Both the position numbers and the translations under genes were made by a program. Source: Candidatus Kaiserbacteria bacterium (lineage in GTDB: Bacteria; Patescibacteriota; Minisyncoccia; Phycocordibacterales; UBA2100). From it: a DNA stretch of 64,000 nt. The notes under the pieces were generated by a model. The model was not told the origin of the DNA. It saw only the letters and a list, made by a program, of their open reading frames with translations, and searched no databases. The stretch spans positions 352,933 to 416,932 of the forward strand of contig CP066682.1 of NCBI GenBank assembly GCA_016432285.1, in the 5' to 3' direction. Positions 25,520-52,374 of the stretch are shown piece after piece (within the stretch, counting starts at the first letter, position 1; every line of letters starts with the position of its first letter).

Positions 25520-26293
25520 TTAACGTTGTAGGTCAAGAGGAGGGTTCACGGAGAACACCTTCCGGACCCATTCGCGCGTGTCGTCCACGCGCTTTATGAG
25601 GTTAGCGCGTCTGTTTGGATCGGAAATCTCTTTAGCCACCTGGATATACTGGAGATTTGACTCGGCAATTTTTTTGTCGATCGCGTACTCACGTGCATGA
25701 TTTTTTTCAACGAGGAATTTTATGAATTCGTCGTCCTTCTTCTCCTCTCTGAAGTAGTTCCACTTCAGCGCAAGAAAAAAAGCCTGGTTGTTCTTGCCGA
25801 TTAGGTTCTCGTAGTGGTAGAGGTTTCCAACATTCGCTATTTGCATGTGCACGCTCGCCAGATCTTCGTGGATTAAGGCGCGGTCGATTCGCTCTTTTGC
25901 TTTTCCTCCCTTGTCCGTAGATGCAGTTTGCCAGTCGTAAAGCGTCTTGTAGAGAAGTGCGTGTATGTATCCGAGAATGTTGTTCACCTTCACGCTCACG
26001 TATGCCTTTTCCTGGCCGTGGGTTCGTGCCATCTCTTCAGCGATGGTTTTTGAAATCCAAAGATAGACGCCATACCCAGCGACACCGACAAAAGCCATTA
26101 CGATGCTCAAGATGTCTAGAACGTCAGATGTCTCAATGGGAGCCAAAAGTGGCGAGGATATCTGAGCCAGACGAAGGAAGTCAGGCACGTACAAGAAGCC
26201 GACGGCAAAAATAAAAACCGTCGCTAAAATGCCGATTAGTTCGAAGACCTTTCTCATGCGCGGATCCATTCTACGCTCCAAAGTTAGGTCCAC
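25520..26293 (-). CDS. hypothetical membrane protein (2-3 N-terminal TM helices plus soluble C-terminal domain)
   Basis: Long ORF with N-terminal TM helices. No family recognised. Confidence 0.5.
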   Translation of the reverse strand: MDLTLERRMDPRMRKVFELIGILATVFIFAVGFLYVPDFLRLAQISSPLLAPIETSDVLDILSIVMAFVGVAGYGVYLWISKTIAEEMARTHGQEKAYVSVKVNNILGYIHALLYKTLYDWQTASTDKGGKAKERIDRALIHEDLASVHMQIANVGNLYHYENLIGKNNQAFFLALKWNYFREEKKDDEFIKFLVEKNHAREYAIDKKIAESNLQYIQVAKEISDPNRRANLIKRVDDTREWVRKVFSVNPPLDLQR

Positions 26294-49305: not shown

Positions 49306-50154
49306 ATGAGTCTCCTTATGGCCCGGTTCGACGAGATCTACCAGGAGATGCTCGGGAAGATCATGAAAGAGGGCGTGCGGCAGGTTTCGGGCCGCAACCA
49401 GCACGAAACGGTCGCGATCCCGGGGATGCACTTTTCGATAGACGTGGAAAAGGAGGGCTTCCCGCTTCTCACGCTCCGCAAGATACCGGTCAAGATGTTC
49501 GTGGCGGAGCAGATCTGGTTTATCGCGGGAGTGCGGAAGCCGTCGGATTTTTTGGAGGATTTCACGAAAATTTGGAATGAGTTCACGAATCCCGCGGGCG
49601 TCGTCACGGTGGCCTACGGCTACCGCTGGCGCAAGCACTTCGGCCGCGATCAGCTCGGCCTCCTCGTGAAATTGTTGAAGAAGGATCCGAGCTCTCGCCA
49701 CGGCGTGATCGTTACATGGGACCCCTCTGAAGACGGACTCGGTGGCACCAAAAGAATGAACGTGCCATGCCCGTACTCGTTTACCGTCAACATCATCGGC
49801 GGGCGGCTGCACCTCCACAACATCGTGCGCTCCAACGACATGGTGCTCGGATTTCCATCCGACGTCGCGGGCTTTGCGCTTTTGCAGTGCATCCTCGCGC
49901 AAAAGCTCGGCGTCGCTCCGGGCATATACAGCCACTCGATCTCCAACGCACACGTCTGGGACAATCAGTATCCGGTTGCCGAAGAGCTCTTGAAGCGAAA
50001 AAGCGAACATCCTGCGATCAAAGTGGTGTTGCCCAAAAACACGTTCGATCGCGCGGAGAAAAAAGACAAGAAATTGGTCGACGAGATCGTGAATCCGATC
50101 GCCGCGCAGTACCAGCCGCTTCCCGCGATTTCCGGCATGCAAATTGTGCTTTGA
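49306..50154 (+). CDS. thyA: thymidylate synthase (ThyA, folate-dependent)
   Basis: ThyA motifs (RLHLHNIVRSNDMVLGFPSDVAGFALLQ, PCPYSF). The start is ATG 49306 or the in-frame ATG at 49318 (MARFDEIYQ aligns with E. coli M1). A -10-like TACAAT overlaps the start. Confidence 0.9.
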   Translation: MSLLMARFDEIYQEMLGKIMKEGVRQVSGRNQHETVAIPGMHFSIDVEKEGFPLLTLRKIPVKMFVAEQIWFIAGVRKPSDFLEDFTKIWNEFTNPAGVVTVAYGYRWRKHFGRDQLGLLVKLLKKDPSSRHGVIVTWDPSEDGLGGTKRMNVPCPYSFTVNIIGGRLHLHNIVRSNDMVLGFPSDVAGFALLQCILAQKLGVAPGIYSHSISNAHVWDNQYPVAEELLKRKSEHPAIKVVLPKNTFDRAEKKDKKLVDEIVNPIAAQYQPLPAISGMQIVL

Positions 50155-50157
50155 GCA

Positions 50158-50774
50158 TGGATGATCTAAATAAGCCACTTACGGCGAGACAGGGTATTGA
50201 GCGAGAAGCCCAGCTTTCCTTTTTGAAGAAAATTTTTGAGAGTCAGCTTCCGGTGTATTTGGTAGGCGGCCTTGCGGATGACGCACTCCTCCATAAAAAG
50301 GCCACAAGACGTCACCAAGATGTCGACTTTTTGGCATCGCGCCACGATTCGGACCTGTTAATAGAGGAACTTTCGCGTATGGGCTACAGAGTTCGTGAAG
50401 AGGGACCGGTCCCGCTGCGAGAGAGCCCATATAAGCTGTCTATCCTGGGGAATAACATCAAAGCGGAAGTCGTTTTTTACGATAGAGATCAAAACGGCGA
50501 ATCTTATGTCGCACTATCGAACCCCATGATGGGTGAAAGGTTGCGGGTGTATGTCGATATGAAGGAAGCGATGCCTGCTCAGCAGATCAATGGTATCGAA
50601 GTGAAGACGGTTTCCACACTTACCCTCATACGTCTAAAAGACGAATACCATCAGGCGGGAGCGCCCGAATCCAACCCTCAACAGGTTCGAACTAGGAATA
50701 GACTCATTGACAAGTTCTACCCCGGAGAAAATCCTGATTCTGACAAATTCAAGCTTCGGATCGAGAAAGAGTGA
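50158..50774 (+). CDS. Pol-beta-superfamily nucleotidyltransferase (ANT(2'')/LinB-like small NTase); lower-GC gene inserted between thyA and dcd
   Basis: The GG-x-DDAL...HQDVDFL motif (GS...D-x-D) of minimal nucleotidyltransferases. Local GC is ~48% against ~62% in the flanks. Its ATG is 4 nt after the thyA stop, and its stop overlaps the dcd ATG. Confidence 0.65.
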
Positions 50775-51445
50775 TGGTTCGACGGTTGCTGGAAGCAAGA
50801 TATAATGCCAAGTCCATGGCCATCCTTACCGGCGAAGAGATCCTGGCGCGCGTGAAGAAAGGCAACATCGCCTTCTCTCCTGGGCTCGACCAGTTCCAGC
50901 TCCAGACCCACGCCGTCGACCTCCGGCTCGGCTTCACCTTCCTCATCCCGAAGTCGTGGCACATGACCGCGAAAGGTCGCGAAGCGTACCGCATCGATCC
51001 CTTGAAGGATCACGGTCCCGAATACTTCGACATCATCGAGCTCGAACAGGGGCAGTGTTTTGAACTCCTGCCGCAGGAGTACGTGCTCGTCTCCACCTTT
51101 GAGACGATCAAAGTGCCGGACGATCTCATGGCCGTGCTCTACCCGCGCTCGTCGGTGAACCGCAAGGGTCTTTCCGTCGATCTCACGGGCATCATCGACT
51201 CGGGCTACGAAGGGCCCCTCACGCTTCCCGTCAAAAACAACACACGCTCGCAGGTGATCCAGTTGCACCCGGGGGAGCGCTTCTGCCAAGTCGTCTTCGA
51301 GCAGCTTTCCAAAAAGGTGAAGCCTCGCCGCAGTCGGTGGCACCAGAAAGACGTGGTGGAAAAGGGCGCAAAAGAAAAGAGCGTGGAGATGAAGATGGTC
51401 TTTGGGGGAGATCTGAAGAAGCTGAAAAAAGATTTTGCAGCATGA
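50771..51445 (+). CDS. dcd: dCTP deaminase
   Basis: dUTPase-fold dCTP deaminase motifs (VDLTGIIDSGYEGPLTLPVKN, ERFCQVVF). The true start may be the ATG at 50813 (MAILTGEEIL). Confidence 0.8.
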   Translation: MMVRRLLEARYNAKSMAILTGEEILARVKKGNIAFSPGLDQFQLQTHAVDLRLGFTFLIPKSWHMTAKGREAYRIDPLKDHGPEYFDIIELEQGQCFELLPQEYVLVSTFETIKVPDDLMAVLYPRSSVNRKGLSVDLTGIIDSGYEGPLTLPVKNNTRSQVIQLHPGERFCQVVFEQLSKKVKPRRSRWHQKDVVEKGAKEKSVEMKMVFGGDLKKLKKDFAA

Positions 51446-51947
51446 TATGGCTGCGAGAATCTGTGCGGTCGTAGCGATCGGAAAAAATCGGGAACTCGGC
51501 AAAGACGGCAAGCTCCTCTGGCACATTCCCGCCGACCTGAAGCGCTTCAAAGAGCTGACGCTCGGGCATCCCGTGATCATGGGGCGTAAAACCTTCGAGT
51601 CGATCGTGGACTACCTCGGCGGCCCGTTGCCTGATCGCACCAATATCGTCGTGACGCGGGATCGTAGCTGGAAGCACGAGGGCGTGATTGCGGTGGGATC
51701 ACTGGACGAGGCTATCGCGCAGGCCCGGCAGCTCGATGACCAAGAAATTCACATCGGCGGCGGTGCGGACATATACGCGCAAGCGCTCCCGCAGATCGAT
51801 CGGCTCTACCTTACGCTCATCGATGCAAAAGGGGATGCGGACACTTTTTTCCCGGCATACGAAGACGAGTTTACGAAAAAGACGCTCGAAGAGGCGCACG
51901 AGTGGAATGGTTTGAAGTATCGCTACGTGAATCTCGAGCGTTCATAA
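51435..51947 (+). CDS. folA: dihydrofolate reductase
   Basis: ICAVVAIGKNRELGKDGKLLWHIPADLKRFKELTLGHPVIMGRKTFESI is a canonical DHFR. Length ~165 aa. Confidence 0.9.
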   Translation: MQHDMAARICAVVAIGKNRELGKDGKLLWHIPADLKRFKELTLGHPVIMGRKTFESIVDYLGGPLPDRTNIVVTRDRSWKHEGVIAVGSLDEAIAQARQLDDQEIHIGGGADIYAQALPQIDRLYLTLIDAKGDADTFFPAYEDEFTKKTLEEAHEWNGLKYRYVNLERS

Positions 51948-52374
51948 AAACGCGCCCCGGAGAAGACTCCGAGGCGCGGGAAAGATCCAGCTCGCATGCG
52001 ACGTAGAAGGTCGGCCGACCGGTGAAGCGGTTCACGCGCGCGTAGATGTGCGCCGTGCGCTCGGTGATCCGGGGCTTGAGGCAGGCGACGATTGCTTCAT
52101 GGTGCCCGCCCGACTCGTCTCTGAAGCCGAGACGCCGGATCGTGCCCCGCGTGGTGATTTCTGGCGAGAGCAGCGAGCGGATGCCGATGTCGTAGACTGC
52201 CTCCGCGCCGGTAAAGACCGCGATGCCGAGCCGCTGCCGTTGTTCGGCGAACGGGATTCCGGCGGACATGTCTTGCGCGATCTCCCGCGTCTTGGATCTC
52301 GGGTCGCCGAATGCGGTCATCAAGATCATGATCACAAATGCGCTCGCCATACCGGCGACAATGGATTTCTGCAT
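51871..52374 (-). CDS. hypothetical protein with an N-terminal signal-like hydrophobic segment (low confidence; its 3' end overlaps folA by 77 nt)
   Basis: ORF only, no homology recognised. The convergent overlap with folA and a hairpin after folA make it doubtful. Confidence 0.25.
   Translation of the reverse strand: MQKSIVAGMASAFVIMILMTAFGDPRSKTREIAQDMSAGIPFAEQRQRLGIAVFTGAEAVYDIGIRSLLSPEITTRGTIRRLGFRDESGGHHEAIVACLKPRITERTAHIYARVNRFTGRPTFYVACELDLSRASESSPGRVFMNARDSRSDTSNHSTRAPLRASFS

What the first reader, a model, noticed from the sequence alone, without database searches (positions are those of the whole stretch)
50158..50774. Lower-GC nucleotidyltransferase gene inserted precisely between thyA and dcd in the dTMP operon
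The cluster thyA-dcd-folA (with dCMP deaminase, tmk and glyA convergent upstream) is a coherent thymidylate pathway. Between thyA and dcd sits a 205-aa minimal Pol-beta-type NTase (GGLADDALL..HQDVDF), the family that includes ANT(2'')/Lnu antibiotic nucleotidyltransferases and MNT-type toxin-antitoxin components. Its GC is ~48% against ~62% in the flanks. Its ATG is 4 nt after the thyA stop and its stop overlaps the dcd ATG. It therefore looks like a horizontally acquired gene captured into the operon with translational coupling.
Basis: seen in the sequence. Interest (0 to 1): 0.6.

Follow-up and report, generated by a model that had tools for sequence, protein, structure and literature searches.

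The report
Foreign nucleotidyltransferase gene inserted after thyA
A small enzyme gene of the antibiotic-modifying nucleotidyltransferase superfamily was recently picked up from another organism and slotted right behind the thymidylate synthase gene of an ultra-small (CPR/Kaiserbacteria-like) bacterium; this is a clean but fairly ordinary case of horizontal gene transfer, and what the enzyme acts on is still unknown.

Summary
The ORF is real (ATG 50157 to TGA 50774, 205 aa; the finding's start is off by one). It is strongly atypical in composition: GC 0.482 and GC3 0.515, against host-gene means of 0.591 and 0.754 (z = -5.3 and -6.3). None of 80 related Parcubacteria loci carries it. In 46 of 77 relatives the thyA stop lies within 18 nt of the dcd start. 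The ancestral spacer (TATAAT box plus ATG) survives at 50798-50818. So about 643 nt (50155-50797) were inserted, and the real dcd start is 50816, not the ATG that overlaps the NTase stop. A 65%-identical copy sits 1 nt behind gyrA in another Kaiserbacteria lineage, again with low GC3. The protein keeps all Pol-beta catalytic motifs (GG37-38, D55, D57, E104) and folds confidently (pLDDT 91). Its closest relatives are LnuA and ANT(2'')-Ia, but only over the N-terminal core. It fails every curated resistance-gene model, has no HEPN or antitoxin partner, and belongs to a rare, uncharacterised family. The most likely reading is a horizontally acquired accessory small-molecule nucleotidyltransferase, translated by coupling to thyA. 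The substrate is unknown. Interest is moderate to low.

The parts
49318..50154 (+). thyA-like gene, the upstream neighbour and probable provider of transcription and translation for the NTase. An alternative in-frame ATG lies at 49306.
   Evidence: PF00303 at 167 bits. It is 65-83% identical to ThyA in 80 Parcubacteria loci. A TACAAT box lies 16 nt upstream of its ATG.
50155..50797 (.). Inserted DNA of about 643 nt: a 2-nt junction (GC), the NTase ORF and a 23-nt 3' tail.
   Evidence: Relatives have 2-18 nt at this position, and the ancestral spacer resumes at about 50798. No flanking direct or inverted repeats were found.
50157..50774 (+). NTase ORF of 205 aa. It belongs to the Pol-beta superfamily, in an uncharacterised family related to PF10706.
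   Evidence: GC is 0.482 and GC3 is 0.515. The AF2 model has pLDDT 91.2.
50265..50327 (+). Catalytic core codons: G37-G38 (hG[GS]) through H53, D55 and D57 (DxD metal ligands).
   Evidence: D55 and D57 are invariant, and G37, G38 and H53 nearly invariant, in 38- and 60-sequence family alignments.
50466..50468 (+). Codon for E104, the third acidic residue (h[DE]h strand motif).
   Evidence: It is nearly invariant in the 60-sequence alignment A2 and lies in the predicted strand 101-110.
50779..50806 (+). Promoter-like site for dcd. The -35-like TCGACG (50779-50784) comes from the insert tail, and the ancestral TATAAT is at 50801-50806.
   Evidence: It matches 10 of 12 consensus positions. The TATAAT is homologous to the spacer in L007, L008 and L061. 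dcd has a -10-like box in 45 of 72 relatives, against 11% at random positions. This is a consensus match only.
50798..50815 (+). Retained ancestral thyA-dcd spacer (agATATAATGCcaagTCC).
   Evidence: It aligns with L007/L008 cggTTATAATGCtcATCC, which sits immediately before ATG-GCA-ATC-CTT-ACC.
50816..51445 (+). dcd (dCTP deaminase-like), starting at the conserved start MAILTGEEIL.
   Evidence: PF22769 at 119 bits. All relatives start at M[AS]ILT. An independent gene call in L001 uses the same start.
50774..50776 (+). In-frame upstream ATG that overlaps the NTase TGA (TGATG). It is a possible reinitiation site that would add 14 residues to Dcd, and it is not the ancestral start.
   Evidence: Read from the sequence. 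The frame is open through to 50816, and the codons in between include the former non-coding spacer.
51447..51947 (+). folA (DHFR), 1 nt after the dcd stop.
   Evidence: PF00186 at 164 bits.

Best explanation
The 50157-50774 ORF is a recently acquired accessory gene in a Candidatus Kaiserbacteria-like (Patescibacteria/CPR) genome. About 643 nt carrying essentially only the ORF were inserted, by an unknown and probably illegitimate recombination event, into the very short thyA-dcd spacer, directly after the thyA stop codon. The gene has no promoter box or Shine-Dalgarno site of its own. This genome uses -10 boxes placed right in front of start codons and tight gene-to-gene coupling. The NTase is therefore most likely transcribed from the thyA promoter and translated by termination-reinitiation 2 nt after the thyA stop. 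dcd-folA keep the ancestral -10 box and start codon. The product is a catalytically intact Pol-beta-fold nucleotidyltransferase from a rare, uncharacterised family whose catalytic core is homologous to LnuA and ANT(2'')-Ia. It most likely uses Mg-NTP to transfer an NMP onto a hydroxyl group of a small molecule such as an antibiotic or xenobiotic, acting as a detoxification or resistance enzyme. What has been shown: the insertion, the foreign composition, the intact motifs, the fold and purifying selection. What is inferred: the mode of expression, the small-molecule substrate and any resistance role.
For: Evidence for insertion. None of 80 related loci encodes the NTase. Of the 77 loci with both genes, 46 have a thyA-dcd gap of 18 nt or less and 57 have 45 nt or less, against 661 nt here. 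The ancestral spacer is retained at 50798-50815.

Evidence for foreign origin. GC3 has z = -6.3 and codon fit z = -6.3 against 33 host genes, while GC1 and GC2 are normal. Only 4 homologues exist among 5.8 billion proteins, and 89 representatives among 1.84 billion. A 65%-identical copy lies 1 nt after gyrA in a second Kaiserbacteria lineage (GyrA 83-92% identical to Ca. Kaiserbacteria). Its GC3 is 0.49 against 0.67 for gyrA, and two gyrA relatives lack it.

Evidence that it is a real, constrained gene. Between the two host copies pN is 0.22 while pS is 0.89 (saturated). The AF2 model has pLDDT 91.2. GG37-38, H53, D55, D57 and E104 are conserved.

Evidence on family and function. PF10706 scores above its gathering threshold. 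The family profile hits LnuA at 4e-7 and ANT(2'')-Ia at 7e-7. The top Foldseek hits are LnuA and ANT(2'')-Ia. The family as a whole is acidic, with median pI 4.6-5.1. Family members sit as solitary genes in detoxification- or resistance-type neighbourhoods: glyoxalase, a second PF10706 paralogue, GNAT, a pentapeptide-repeat protein and VanW in L093/L094, and MMPL, GNAT and an MBL-fold protein in L087.

Evidence on expression. The NTase has no SD site and no -10 box. thyA has a -10-like box in 71 of 77 relatives and dcd in 45 of 72, against 11% at random positions. Gene junctions of 1-4 nt are common in this genome.
Against: No substrate is known for any member of this family. Sequence similarity to ANT(2'') and LnuA stops after about 75 residues. 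The C-terminal half, which would form the substrate pocket, has no sequence counterpart, and the fold match is only moderate (TMq 0.54, rmsd 4-5 A). Curated resistance models fail: Lnu(P) scores 17 bits against a cut-off of 300, and there is no ANT(2'') hit. The window's own clade is near-neutral (pI 6.15) rather than acidic. The MenT1 tRNA-NTase toxin and LicD/FKRP phosphotransferases are almost equally close by fold. No expression data exist, and a gene caller truncated the ORF to 131 aa. No mobility genes or target-site duplications mark the insertion. The nearest host relative is only 83% identical in ThyA, so 'recent' is a relative term.
Confidence: 0.55

Rival explanations
1. The protein is a MenT/AbiEii-like RNA nucleotidyltransferase. 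It would add nucleotides to tRNA 3' ends or another RNA, acting as a growth-arresting toxin or a regulator rather than as a small-molecule modifier.
For: The MenT1 toxin structures (8an5, 8an4, 8rr5) are among the top Foldseek hits, with TMq 0.46-0.53 and E about 1e-5. MenT3/TglT also appears. P0003 gives a very weak AbiEii match in PADLOC (E 0.034). The window clade is near-neutral or basic (pI 6.2-8.6).
Against: There is no PF08843 (DUF1814) hit. The family profile does not detect any MenT sequence at E <= 1, yet it detects LnuA and ANT(2'') at about 1e-7. The MenT motif III/IV Lys and Asp residues (PMC10435456, PMC7450476) have no conserved counterpart here, and the family's RxKD element reads RTRN in the window protein. 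No antitoxin-like partner is present: the upstream genes are thyA (2 nt away) and gyrA (1 nt away), and no neighbour is conserved across 8 contexts. An unguarded toxin coupled to an essential gene would be hard to maintain.
Confidence: 0.12
2. The protein is a LicD/FKRP-like phosphotransferase. It would move a phospho-alcohol (phosphocholine, ribitol-phosphate or glycerol-phosphate) from a CDP-activated donor onto a cell-surface glycan.
For: FKRP structures and many viral LicD-family models match the fold at TMq 0.45-0.54.
Against: There is no sequence match to LicD (PF04991) at E <= 0.01. None of the examined contexts contains cell-envelope or CDP-alcohol biosynthesis genes. The sequence-level affinity is to ANT(2'') and LnuA.
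Confidence: 0.07
3. The gene is a functionally silent passenger. It would be a recently landed foreign ORF that is poorly expressed or not expressed, confers nothing on this host and is on its way to being lost.
For: Its codon usage is very poorly adapted (z = -6.3). It has no promoter or SD site of its own. Only one genome carries it at this site. A gene finder did not recognise the full ORF.
Against: The ORF is intact with every catalytic residue in place. The protein is under purifying selection across lineages (pN 0.22 against saturated pS). The 2-nt junction to thyA is the same kind of junction this genome uses for native coupled genes. CPR genomes are streamlined and purge useless DNA quickly; this last point rests on general knowledge and was not tested here.
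Confidence: 0.13
4. The NTase has a role inside pyrimidine or thymidylate metabolism, for example nucleotidylating a pathway intermediate or an enzyme. Its position in the cluster would then be functional rather than accidental.
For: It sits between thyA and dcd, and its closest relative sits next to gyrA, another DNA-metabolism gene.
Against: All 80 of 80 relatives run the same gene cluster without it. Its homologues occur next to unrelated genes. No nucleotide-metabolism family matches it.
Confidence: 0.04
5. The gene is ancestral to the lineage and was lost from relatives, and its low GC3 is maintained by selection rather than reflecting foreign origin.
For: The copies in the window and in L002 share the same unusual GC3 (about 0.50) despite saturated synonymous divergence.
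Against: This would require loss from every one of 80 sampled relatives, each time with precise restoration of a 2-18-nt spacer. The two known copies sit at different loci, after thyA and after gyrA. More distant homologues track the low GC of their own hosts (L006: 0.41 in a 0.44 context).
Confidence: 0.03

Closest known systems
Lnu(A)/LinA lincosamide nucleotidyltransferase (PDB 4fo1, 4wh5)
   Same: It is the best hit by both sequence profile (E 4e-7) and fold (Foldseek E 2.6e-6, TMt 0.67). It shares the architecture of an N-terminal helix followed by GG...H-x-D-x-D, and a similar small size with no fused domains.
   Different: The aligned sequence ends at about residue 89, and identity is 13% over the structural alignment. 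The window protein is about 45 residues longer, with a beta-rich middle segment (strands 93-149) and a distinct conserved C-terminal TVSP...KF(F/Y)P...FK motif set. The best Lnu-family match among the NCBIfam models is Lnu(P), at 17 bits against a cut-off of 300.
ANT(2'')-Ia / AadB aminoglycoside 2''-nucleotidyltransferase (PF10706; PDB 4wqk, 5cfs, 5kqj)
   Same: The Pfam family match is above the gathering score (24.7 against 21). The core GGxAxDA...H-D-D-I/V-D motif and the fold match (TMq 0.54-0.56) are shared. The wider family has an acidic pI, as ANT(2'') does.
   Different: Only profile positions 10-65 of 149 are matched. No curated ANT(2'') model is hit. The gene is not an integron cassette, since no attC-like repeat is present. 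The window protein itself is near-neutral (pI 6.15).
MenT1 (Rv0078A) tRNA nucleotidyltransferase toxin of the MenAT1 toxin-antitoxin system
   Same: It is a minimal bi-lobed Pol-beta NTase of about 190 aa, with a fold match at TMq 0.46-0.53.
   Different: There is no sequence-level match and no PF08843 hit. The motif III/IV Lys and Asp residues are not conserved. No upstream antitoxin gene is present (PMC10435456).
   Same: Both belong to the Pol-beta superfamily and have a GS/GG...DxD core.
   Different: There is no PF01909 or PF18765 match, and no HEPN gene is adjacent in any of the contexts examined. At 205 aa the protein is nearly twice the size of a typical MNT; the typical size is from memory and was not tested here.
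LicD/FKTN/FKRP phosphotransferases
   Same: Fold-level resemblance of the catalytic domain (TMq 0.45-0.54).
   Different: There is no sequence match, and no cell-envelope context.

Membership tests
Pol-beta-fold nucleotidyltransferase superfamily | An hG[GS] motif, a [DE]x[DE] metal-binding pair and a third acidic residue on the next strand | tested here: met
   G37-G38, D55 and D57 (invariant) and E104 (nearly invariant) are present in family alignments of 38 and 60 sequences. The predicted alpha-beta-alpha-beta core has pLDDT above 95.
Pfam PF10706 (Aminoglyc_resit, ANT(2'')-like) | HMM score above the curated gathering threshold | tested here: met
   The score is 24.7 bits against a cut-off of 21, but it covers only profile positions 10-65 of 149. 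36 of 38 family members also match weakly.
ANT(2'')-Ia / Lnu antibiotic-resistance enzymes (curated AMR families) | A match to an NCBIfam AMR model at its cut-off | tested here: not met
   The only hit is Lnu(P), at 17.2 bits against a cut-off of 300. There is no ANT(2'') model hit.
ANT(2'')-Ia / Lnu antibiotic-resistance enzymes | A homologous C-terminal substrate-binding domain | tested here: inconclusive
ANT(2'')-Ia / Lnu antibiotic-resistance enzymes | Demonstrated nucleotidylation of an aminoglycoside or lincosamide, or an MIC shift | not testable with these tools
   This needs heterologous expression and enzyme assays.
MenT/AbiEii (DUF1814) NTase toxins | A PF08843 match with the conserved motif III Lys and motif IV Asp | tested here: not met
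   There is no PF08843 hit at E <= 0.01, and PADLOC AbiEii gives E 0.034 for one homologue only. No conserved Lys-Asp pair exists, and the RxKD element reads RTRN in the window clade. The motif definitions come from PMC7450476 and PMC10435456.
MenT/AbiEii or HEPN-MNT toxin-antitoxin modules | An adjacent cognate antitoxin or HEPN gene | tested here: not met
   The upstream gene is thyA (window) or gyrA (L002-L005). No neighbour is conserved across L006, L087, L088, L089, L093-L096.
Horizontally acquired gene (genomic insertion) | Absence from relatives with the flanks conserved, atypical composition, and homologues in other contexts | tested here: met
   The gene is absent from all 80 related loci. 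The ancestral spacer is retained. GC3 and codon fit both have z = -6.3. A homologue lies after gyrA in another lineage.
Mobile-element-borne cassette (integron, IS or transposon) | An attC site, terminal inverted repeats, a target-site duplication, or an integrase or transposase nearby | tested here: not met
   Only chance-level short repeats flank the insert. The insert carries 2 nt upstream and 23 nt downstream of the ORF. No mobility gene appears in the L001 gene list.
LicD/FKRP phosphotransferases | A match to the LicD family model | tested here: not met
   There is no Pfam hit. The resemblance is at fold level only.

The most novel reading that the evidence does not exclude
The NTase may belong to a small set of 'bare ORF' hitch-hiker genes in Kaiserbacteria. 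These would spread with no promoter, ribosome-binding site or mobility gene of their own. They would establish themselves by landing 1-2 nt behind the stop codon of an essential, constitutively expressed gene (thyA here; gyrA in L002-L005; an unidentified upstream gene, again 1 nt away, on P0001's contig). From that position they would exploit the termination-reinitiation translation that these Shine-Dalgarno-less, leaderless-type genomes depend on. If so, stop-codon docking would be a distinct route by which streamlined CPR genomes capture foreign genes, possibly antibiotic defences against metabolites of their hosts.
Probability: 0.1. Interest if true: 0.6.

Novelty: new member of a known kind. 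Interest (0 to 1): 0.35.

Why it matters
CPR/Patescibacteria genomes are extremely streamlined, so a clean and datable gene gain is informative. It shows that foreign genes can be taken up with almost no extra DNA. It also shows that they can be wired into expression simply by docking behind an essential gene. If the enzyme proves to inactivate an antibiotic, it would be a resistance determinant from an uncharacterised branch of the ANT(2'')/Lnu superfamily, carried by episymbiotic bacteria. That would bear on environmental resistome surveys, which would miss it because every curated resistance model fails. As things stand it is a well-documented but ordinary HGT event involving an enzyme of unknown substrate.

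Tried and rejected
1. I looked for an integron, IS or target-site-duplication signature around the insert. Only chance-level repeats were found.

2. I considered an MNT/HEPN or other toxin-antitoxin reading. No partner gene and no family match were found.

3. I tested for an anti-phage defence or phage origin. PADLOC and PHROGs gave nothing significant, and BFVD gave only distant LicD-like folds.

4. I tested for plasmid carriage. Only 31%-identical Streptomyces PF10706 genes turned up.

5. I looked for a structured RNA in or around the insert and in the large thyA-dcd gaps of relatives. There were no Rfam hits. Those gaps share only a terminator-like hairpin plus a TAGAAT box.

6. My first genome-wide codon comparison used greedy longest ORFs. 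It picked up spurious antisense ORFs, so I replaced it with independent gene calls.

8. The metagenome locus scan found only one further relative, and the alignment of distant members was too diverse to seed a scan.

9. The cluster look-up returned no names or taxonomy for the close homologues, so the donor lineage remains unknown.

10. The window contains no gyrA to compare with L002.

11. dN/dS could not be computed as a ratio, because synonymous sites are saturated.
Full report
**The observation**

The window holds an uninterrupted ORF from ATG 50157 to TGA 50774, encoding 205 aa with the motif ...LVGGLADDALLHKKATRRHQDVDF.... The finding's start coordinate is one base off.

The upstream thyA-like gene ends at TGA 50152-50154, so only 2 nt (GC) separate it from the NTase ATG.

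The ORF's GC is 0.482. The contrast lies almost entirely at third codon positions: GC3 is 0.515 against 0.70-0.79 in the neighbours, while GC1 and GC2 are normal.

I compared the ORF with 33 host genes: twenty independent gene calls plus thirteen clear long genes. The NTase scores z = -5.25 for GC, -6.31 for GC3 and -6.29 for a leave-one-out codon-usage log-likelihood. It prefers AGA, CGT, CTT, CTA and GAA where the host uses CGC, CTC and GAG. Only 0.6% of 617-bp windows in the 64 kb are as GC-poor, and apart from the finding's own neighbourhood they all fall in one other region, 25.2-25.8 kb. The anomaly is real and lies well outside local variance.

**Host and insertion test**

The thyA-like protein retrieved 80 loci from GTDB genomes, all Patescibacteria/Parcubacteria. 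The closest are Candidatus Kaiserbacteria, at up to 83% amino-acid identity.

The gene order is conserved across these loci: glyA, tmk and dCMP-deaminase on the minus strand, then thyA, dcd and folA on the plus strand. tblastn found the NTase in none of the 80.

Of the 77 loci that hold both thyA and dcd, 46 have 18 nt or less between the thyA stop and the dcd ATG, and 57 have 45 nt or less. In the window the distance is 661 nt. Nine of the 20 larger gaps hold folA or a DHFR-like gene.

The closest relatives show the ancestral junction. In L007/L008 it reads TAG-cggTTATAATGCtcATCC-ATG GCA ATC CTT ACC. The window has agATATAATGCcaagTCC-ATG GCC ATC CTT ACC at 50798-50827.

So the ancestral spacer and the conserved dcd start (MAILT..., ATG 50816) are intact downstream of the NTase. 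About 643 nt (50155-50797) were inserted immediately after the thyA stop. An independent assembly and annotation, L001, is 100% identical to window 40379-60774 and also starts dcd at 50816.

The ATG at 50774 overlaps the NTase TGA and is in frame with dcd, but it lies in newly inserted sequence and reads through the former non-coding spacer. It is not the native start. Reinitiation there, which would give a Dcd 14 residues longer, cannot be excluded.

No direct or inverted repeats, target-site duplication or mobility genes accompany the insert. The mechanism of insertion is unknown.

**A second, independent copy**

The gene is rare. There are four relatives among 5.8 billion proteins, and 89 representatives at E <= 1e-3 among 1.84 billion.

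The closest full-length relatives are P0001 and P0003, at 68% and 65% identity. P0003 occurs on four short contigs (L002-L005), 1 nt after the stop codon of gyrA (TGA-C-ATG). A convergent ORF follows it immediately.

That host is also Kaiserbacteria-like, with a GyrA C-terminus 83-92% identical to Ca. Kaiserbacteria proteins. Two related genomes, L090 and L091, have gyrA followed by a spacer and a convergent gene, with no NTase.

There too the NTase is compositionally foreign, with GC3 0.49 against 0.67 for gyrA.

Between the window copy and the L002 copy, synonymous sites are saturated (pS 0.89) while pN is only 0.22. The protein is therefore under purifying selection. The two copies are old relative to each other, yet neither has drifted towards its host's composition. 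Separate acquisitions from a donor pool of lower GC explain this best.

More distant relatives sit in low-GC contexts or next to unrelated genes:
- L006, at 47% identity, has GC 0.41 in a 0.44 context.
- L089, at 45% identity, sits beside a tRNA-Leu gene.
- L095 sits beside a ParE toxin gene.

**The protein**

Pfam gives PF10706 (Aminoglyc_resit, the ANT(2'') family) at 24.7 bits against a gathering score of 21, over residues 27-83 only. PF14907 scores below its threshold.

NCBIfam gives only Lnu(P), at 17 bits against a cut-off of 300.

Family alignments of 38 and 60 sequences show D55 and D57 invariant. G37, G38 and H53 are nearly invariant in both alignments, and E104, D109, R130, T151, S153 and P154 in the 60-sequence alignment. 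This amounts to a complete Pol-beta catalytic set, plus a family-specific C-terminal signature (PYKL ... TVSPL.LIQ ... KF(F/Y)P ... FK). Every source calls its members 'hypothetical protein'.

AlphaFold2 gives a confident model, with pLDDT 91.2 and pTM 0.88.

Foldseek against the PDB ranks the hits as follows:
- LnuA (4fo1): E 2.6e-6, TMq 0.54, TMt 0.67.
- ANT(2'')-Ia: TMq 0.54-0.56.
- The MenT1 tRNA-nucleotidyltransferase toxin: TMq 0.46-0.53.
- Then MenT3/TglT, TM1012 and FKRP.

Viral models add LicD-like proteins.

A family profile searched against PDB sequences detects only LnuA (4e-7) and ANT(2'')-Ia (7e-7), over the N-terminal ~75 residues, and detects no MenT protein. The sequence kinship is therefore to the LnuA/ANT(2'') core. 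The C-terminal half, where a substrate would bind, is family-specific.

PADLOC and PHROGs give nothing significant.

**Clues to function**

No partner gene is conserved in any context, which argues against a toxin-antitoxin module. The MenT family is defined by PF08843 and by motif III/IV Lys and Asp residues (PMC7450476, PMC10435456). Neither is found here. The family's RxKD element is not even conserved in the window clade, where it reads RTRN.

Family members on longer contigs are solitary genes in accessory neighbourhoods of detoxification or resistance type:
- L093/L094 hold a glyoxalase/bleomycin-resistance fold protein, a second PF10706 paralogue, the family member itself, then a cupin, a GNAT acetyltransferase and a pentapeptide-repeat protein, with VanW and LexA nearby.
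- L087 holds MMPL, GNAT, SnoaL and MBL-fold genes.
- L088 holds glyoxalase and GST genes.

The wider family is acidic, with median pI 4.6-5.1. That suits cationic small-molecule substrates better than RNA. The window protein itself is near-neutral at pI 6.15, so this is weak evidence.

I therefore favour a small-molecule O-nucleotidylyltransferase with a detoxification or resistance role. This is an inference with no biochemical support, and membership of the clinically defined ANT(2'')/Lnu resistance families was tested and not met.

**Expression**

This genome hardly uses Shine-Dalgarno sequences. Many genes instead carry a TAnAAT box 11-16 nt upstream of the ATG, including thyA, tmk, glyA and dcd.

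Across relatives, thyA has such a box in 71 of 77 loci (mostly TATAAT) and dcd in 45 of 72, against 11% at random positions. This suggests leaderless or near-leaderless transcripts. It also suggests that the 'dTMP operon' is really a row of tightly packed, partly self-promoted units.

Junctions of 1-4 nt or short overlaps between consecutive genes are common here, for example dcd-folA at 1 nt, tmk-glyA with a 4-nt overlap, and the pur genes.

The NTase has neither an SD site nor a -10 box. It must be read from the thyA transcript, most plausibly by termination-reinitiation at TGA-GC-ATG.

dcd keeps its ancestral TATAAT (50801-50806). It is now paired with a -35-like TCGACG from the insert tail, giving 10 of 12 consensus matches. 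These are consensus matches and inferences, not demonstrated signals.

**Verdict**

The main interpretation, horizontal acquisition into the thyA-dcd junction, is well supported. Three points are not supported: the overlap with the dcd start, the MNT link, and the implication that the gene is an ANT/Lnu resistance gene.

The feature is a new and divergent member of a known kind: an accessory Pol-beta NTase acquired by HGT. It is of moderate to low general interest. The recurring placement 1-2 nt behind the stop codons of essential genes in two Kaiserbacteria lineages is the most intriguing aspect, but with only two or three instances it may simply reflect genome compaction.

**Side observation**

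The thyA-like gene and all 80 relatives carry Pro and Asp where canonical ThyA has His147 and Asn177 in E. coli numbering. These are the positions reported to decide dUMP versus dCMP specificity (PMC8670742).

The nearest phage homologues, from PaMx74, RcSimone-Hastad and AMA2, share both substitutions. They also share the linkage to a dCMP deaminase, and the first two to DHFR as well.

This trait is lineage-wide and unrelated to the insertion, but it may be the more interesting biology at this locus.

Noticed in passing
window 49318-50154 (thyA-like); L007-L086; L097 2929-3822, L098 2965-3852, L099 3001-3861: The 'ThyA' of this genome and of all 80 Parcubacteria relatives has Pro at E. coli His147 (PCP[YF][ST]) and Asp at Asn177 (RSND..G.P.D). 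[quoted passage not shown] The closest phage homologues (Pseudomonas phage PaMx74, Rhodobacter phage RcSimone-Hastad, Achromobacter phage AMA2) share both substitutions. They also share the same module of ThyA-like gene, dCMP deaminase and, in the first two, DHFR, preceded by a MazG-like or hydrolase gene. This may be a distinct ThyA-family clade that methylates dCMP, with deamination of 5-methyl-dCMP then giving dTMP by a dUMP-free route, or it may make modified cytosine. The CPR literature I could search treats it as ordinary thyA.
   Followed up: partly
window 40500-61200 (gene starts); L007-L086 upstream of thyA and dcd: The genome almost completely lacks Shine-Dalgarno motifs. A TAnAAT-type -10 box sits 10-17 nt upstream of many start codons: thyA in 71 of 77 relatives and dcd in 45 of 72, against 11% at random positions. 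This implies leaderless or near-leaderless mRNAs and heavy reliance on 1-4-nt gene junctions for translating downstream cistrons.
   Followed up: partly
window 25520-26293 (- strand): This is the only other region of the window as GC-poor as the NTase (GC 0.48, GC3 0.59). It is a 257-aa ORF with N-terminal hydrophobic segments that look like membrane helices and no Pfam match. It may be another foreign or orphan gene.
   Followed up: partly
L093 2320-8000 and L094 4925-6666: A family member (P0012) sits in tandem with a second PF10706 paralogue. They are flanked by a glyoxalase/bleomycin-resistance-fold gene, a cupin, a GNAT acetyltransferase and a pentapeptide-repeat (Qnr/MfpA-like) protein, with VanW and LexA nearby. 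The region looks like a small resistance or detoxification island in an unidentified metagenomic bacterium.
   Followed up: no
L020 6838-7212, L022 6838-7204, L021 6838-7272, L049 5568-5874, L031 2259-3250: The thyA-dcd junction varies in other relatives too. Gaps of 300-435 nt, GC-rich in L020 and L022 (0.62-0.65), have no convincing ORF and no Rfam match. They share only a terminator-like hairpin plus TAGAAT just before dcd. L031 has a 992-nt gap holding a 295-aa histidine-rich membrane ORF on the opposite strand. In nine relatives folA or a DHFR-like gene lies between thyA and dcd. The junction appears to be a recurrent site of rearrangement.
   Followed up: partly
window 50379-50774 and 50166-50294 (L001 10001-10396 and 9788-9916): An automatic gene caller on the identical Logan contig truncated the NTase to a 131-aa fragment starting at Met75, which lacks the catalytic GG and DxD motifs. 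It also called a spurious 42-aa antisense ORF over the 5' part. The full-length protein is therefore absent from the protein databases, and routine annotation would miss it.
   Followed up: yes
window 51871-52374 (- strand): This 167-aa ORF converges on folA and overlaps its 3' end by about 77 nt. It has host-like codon usage (GC3 0.73) and no Pfam match. A strong terminator-like hairpin at 51951-51978 lies inside the overlap.
   Followed up: no
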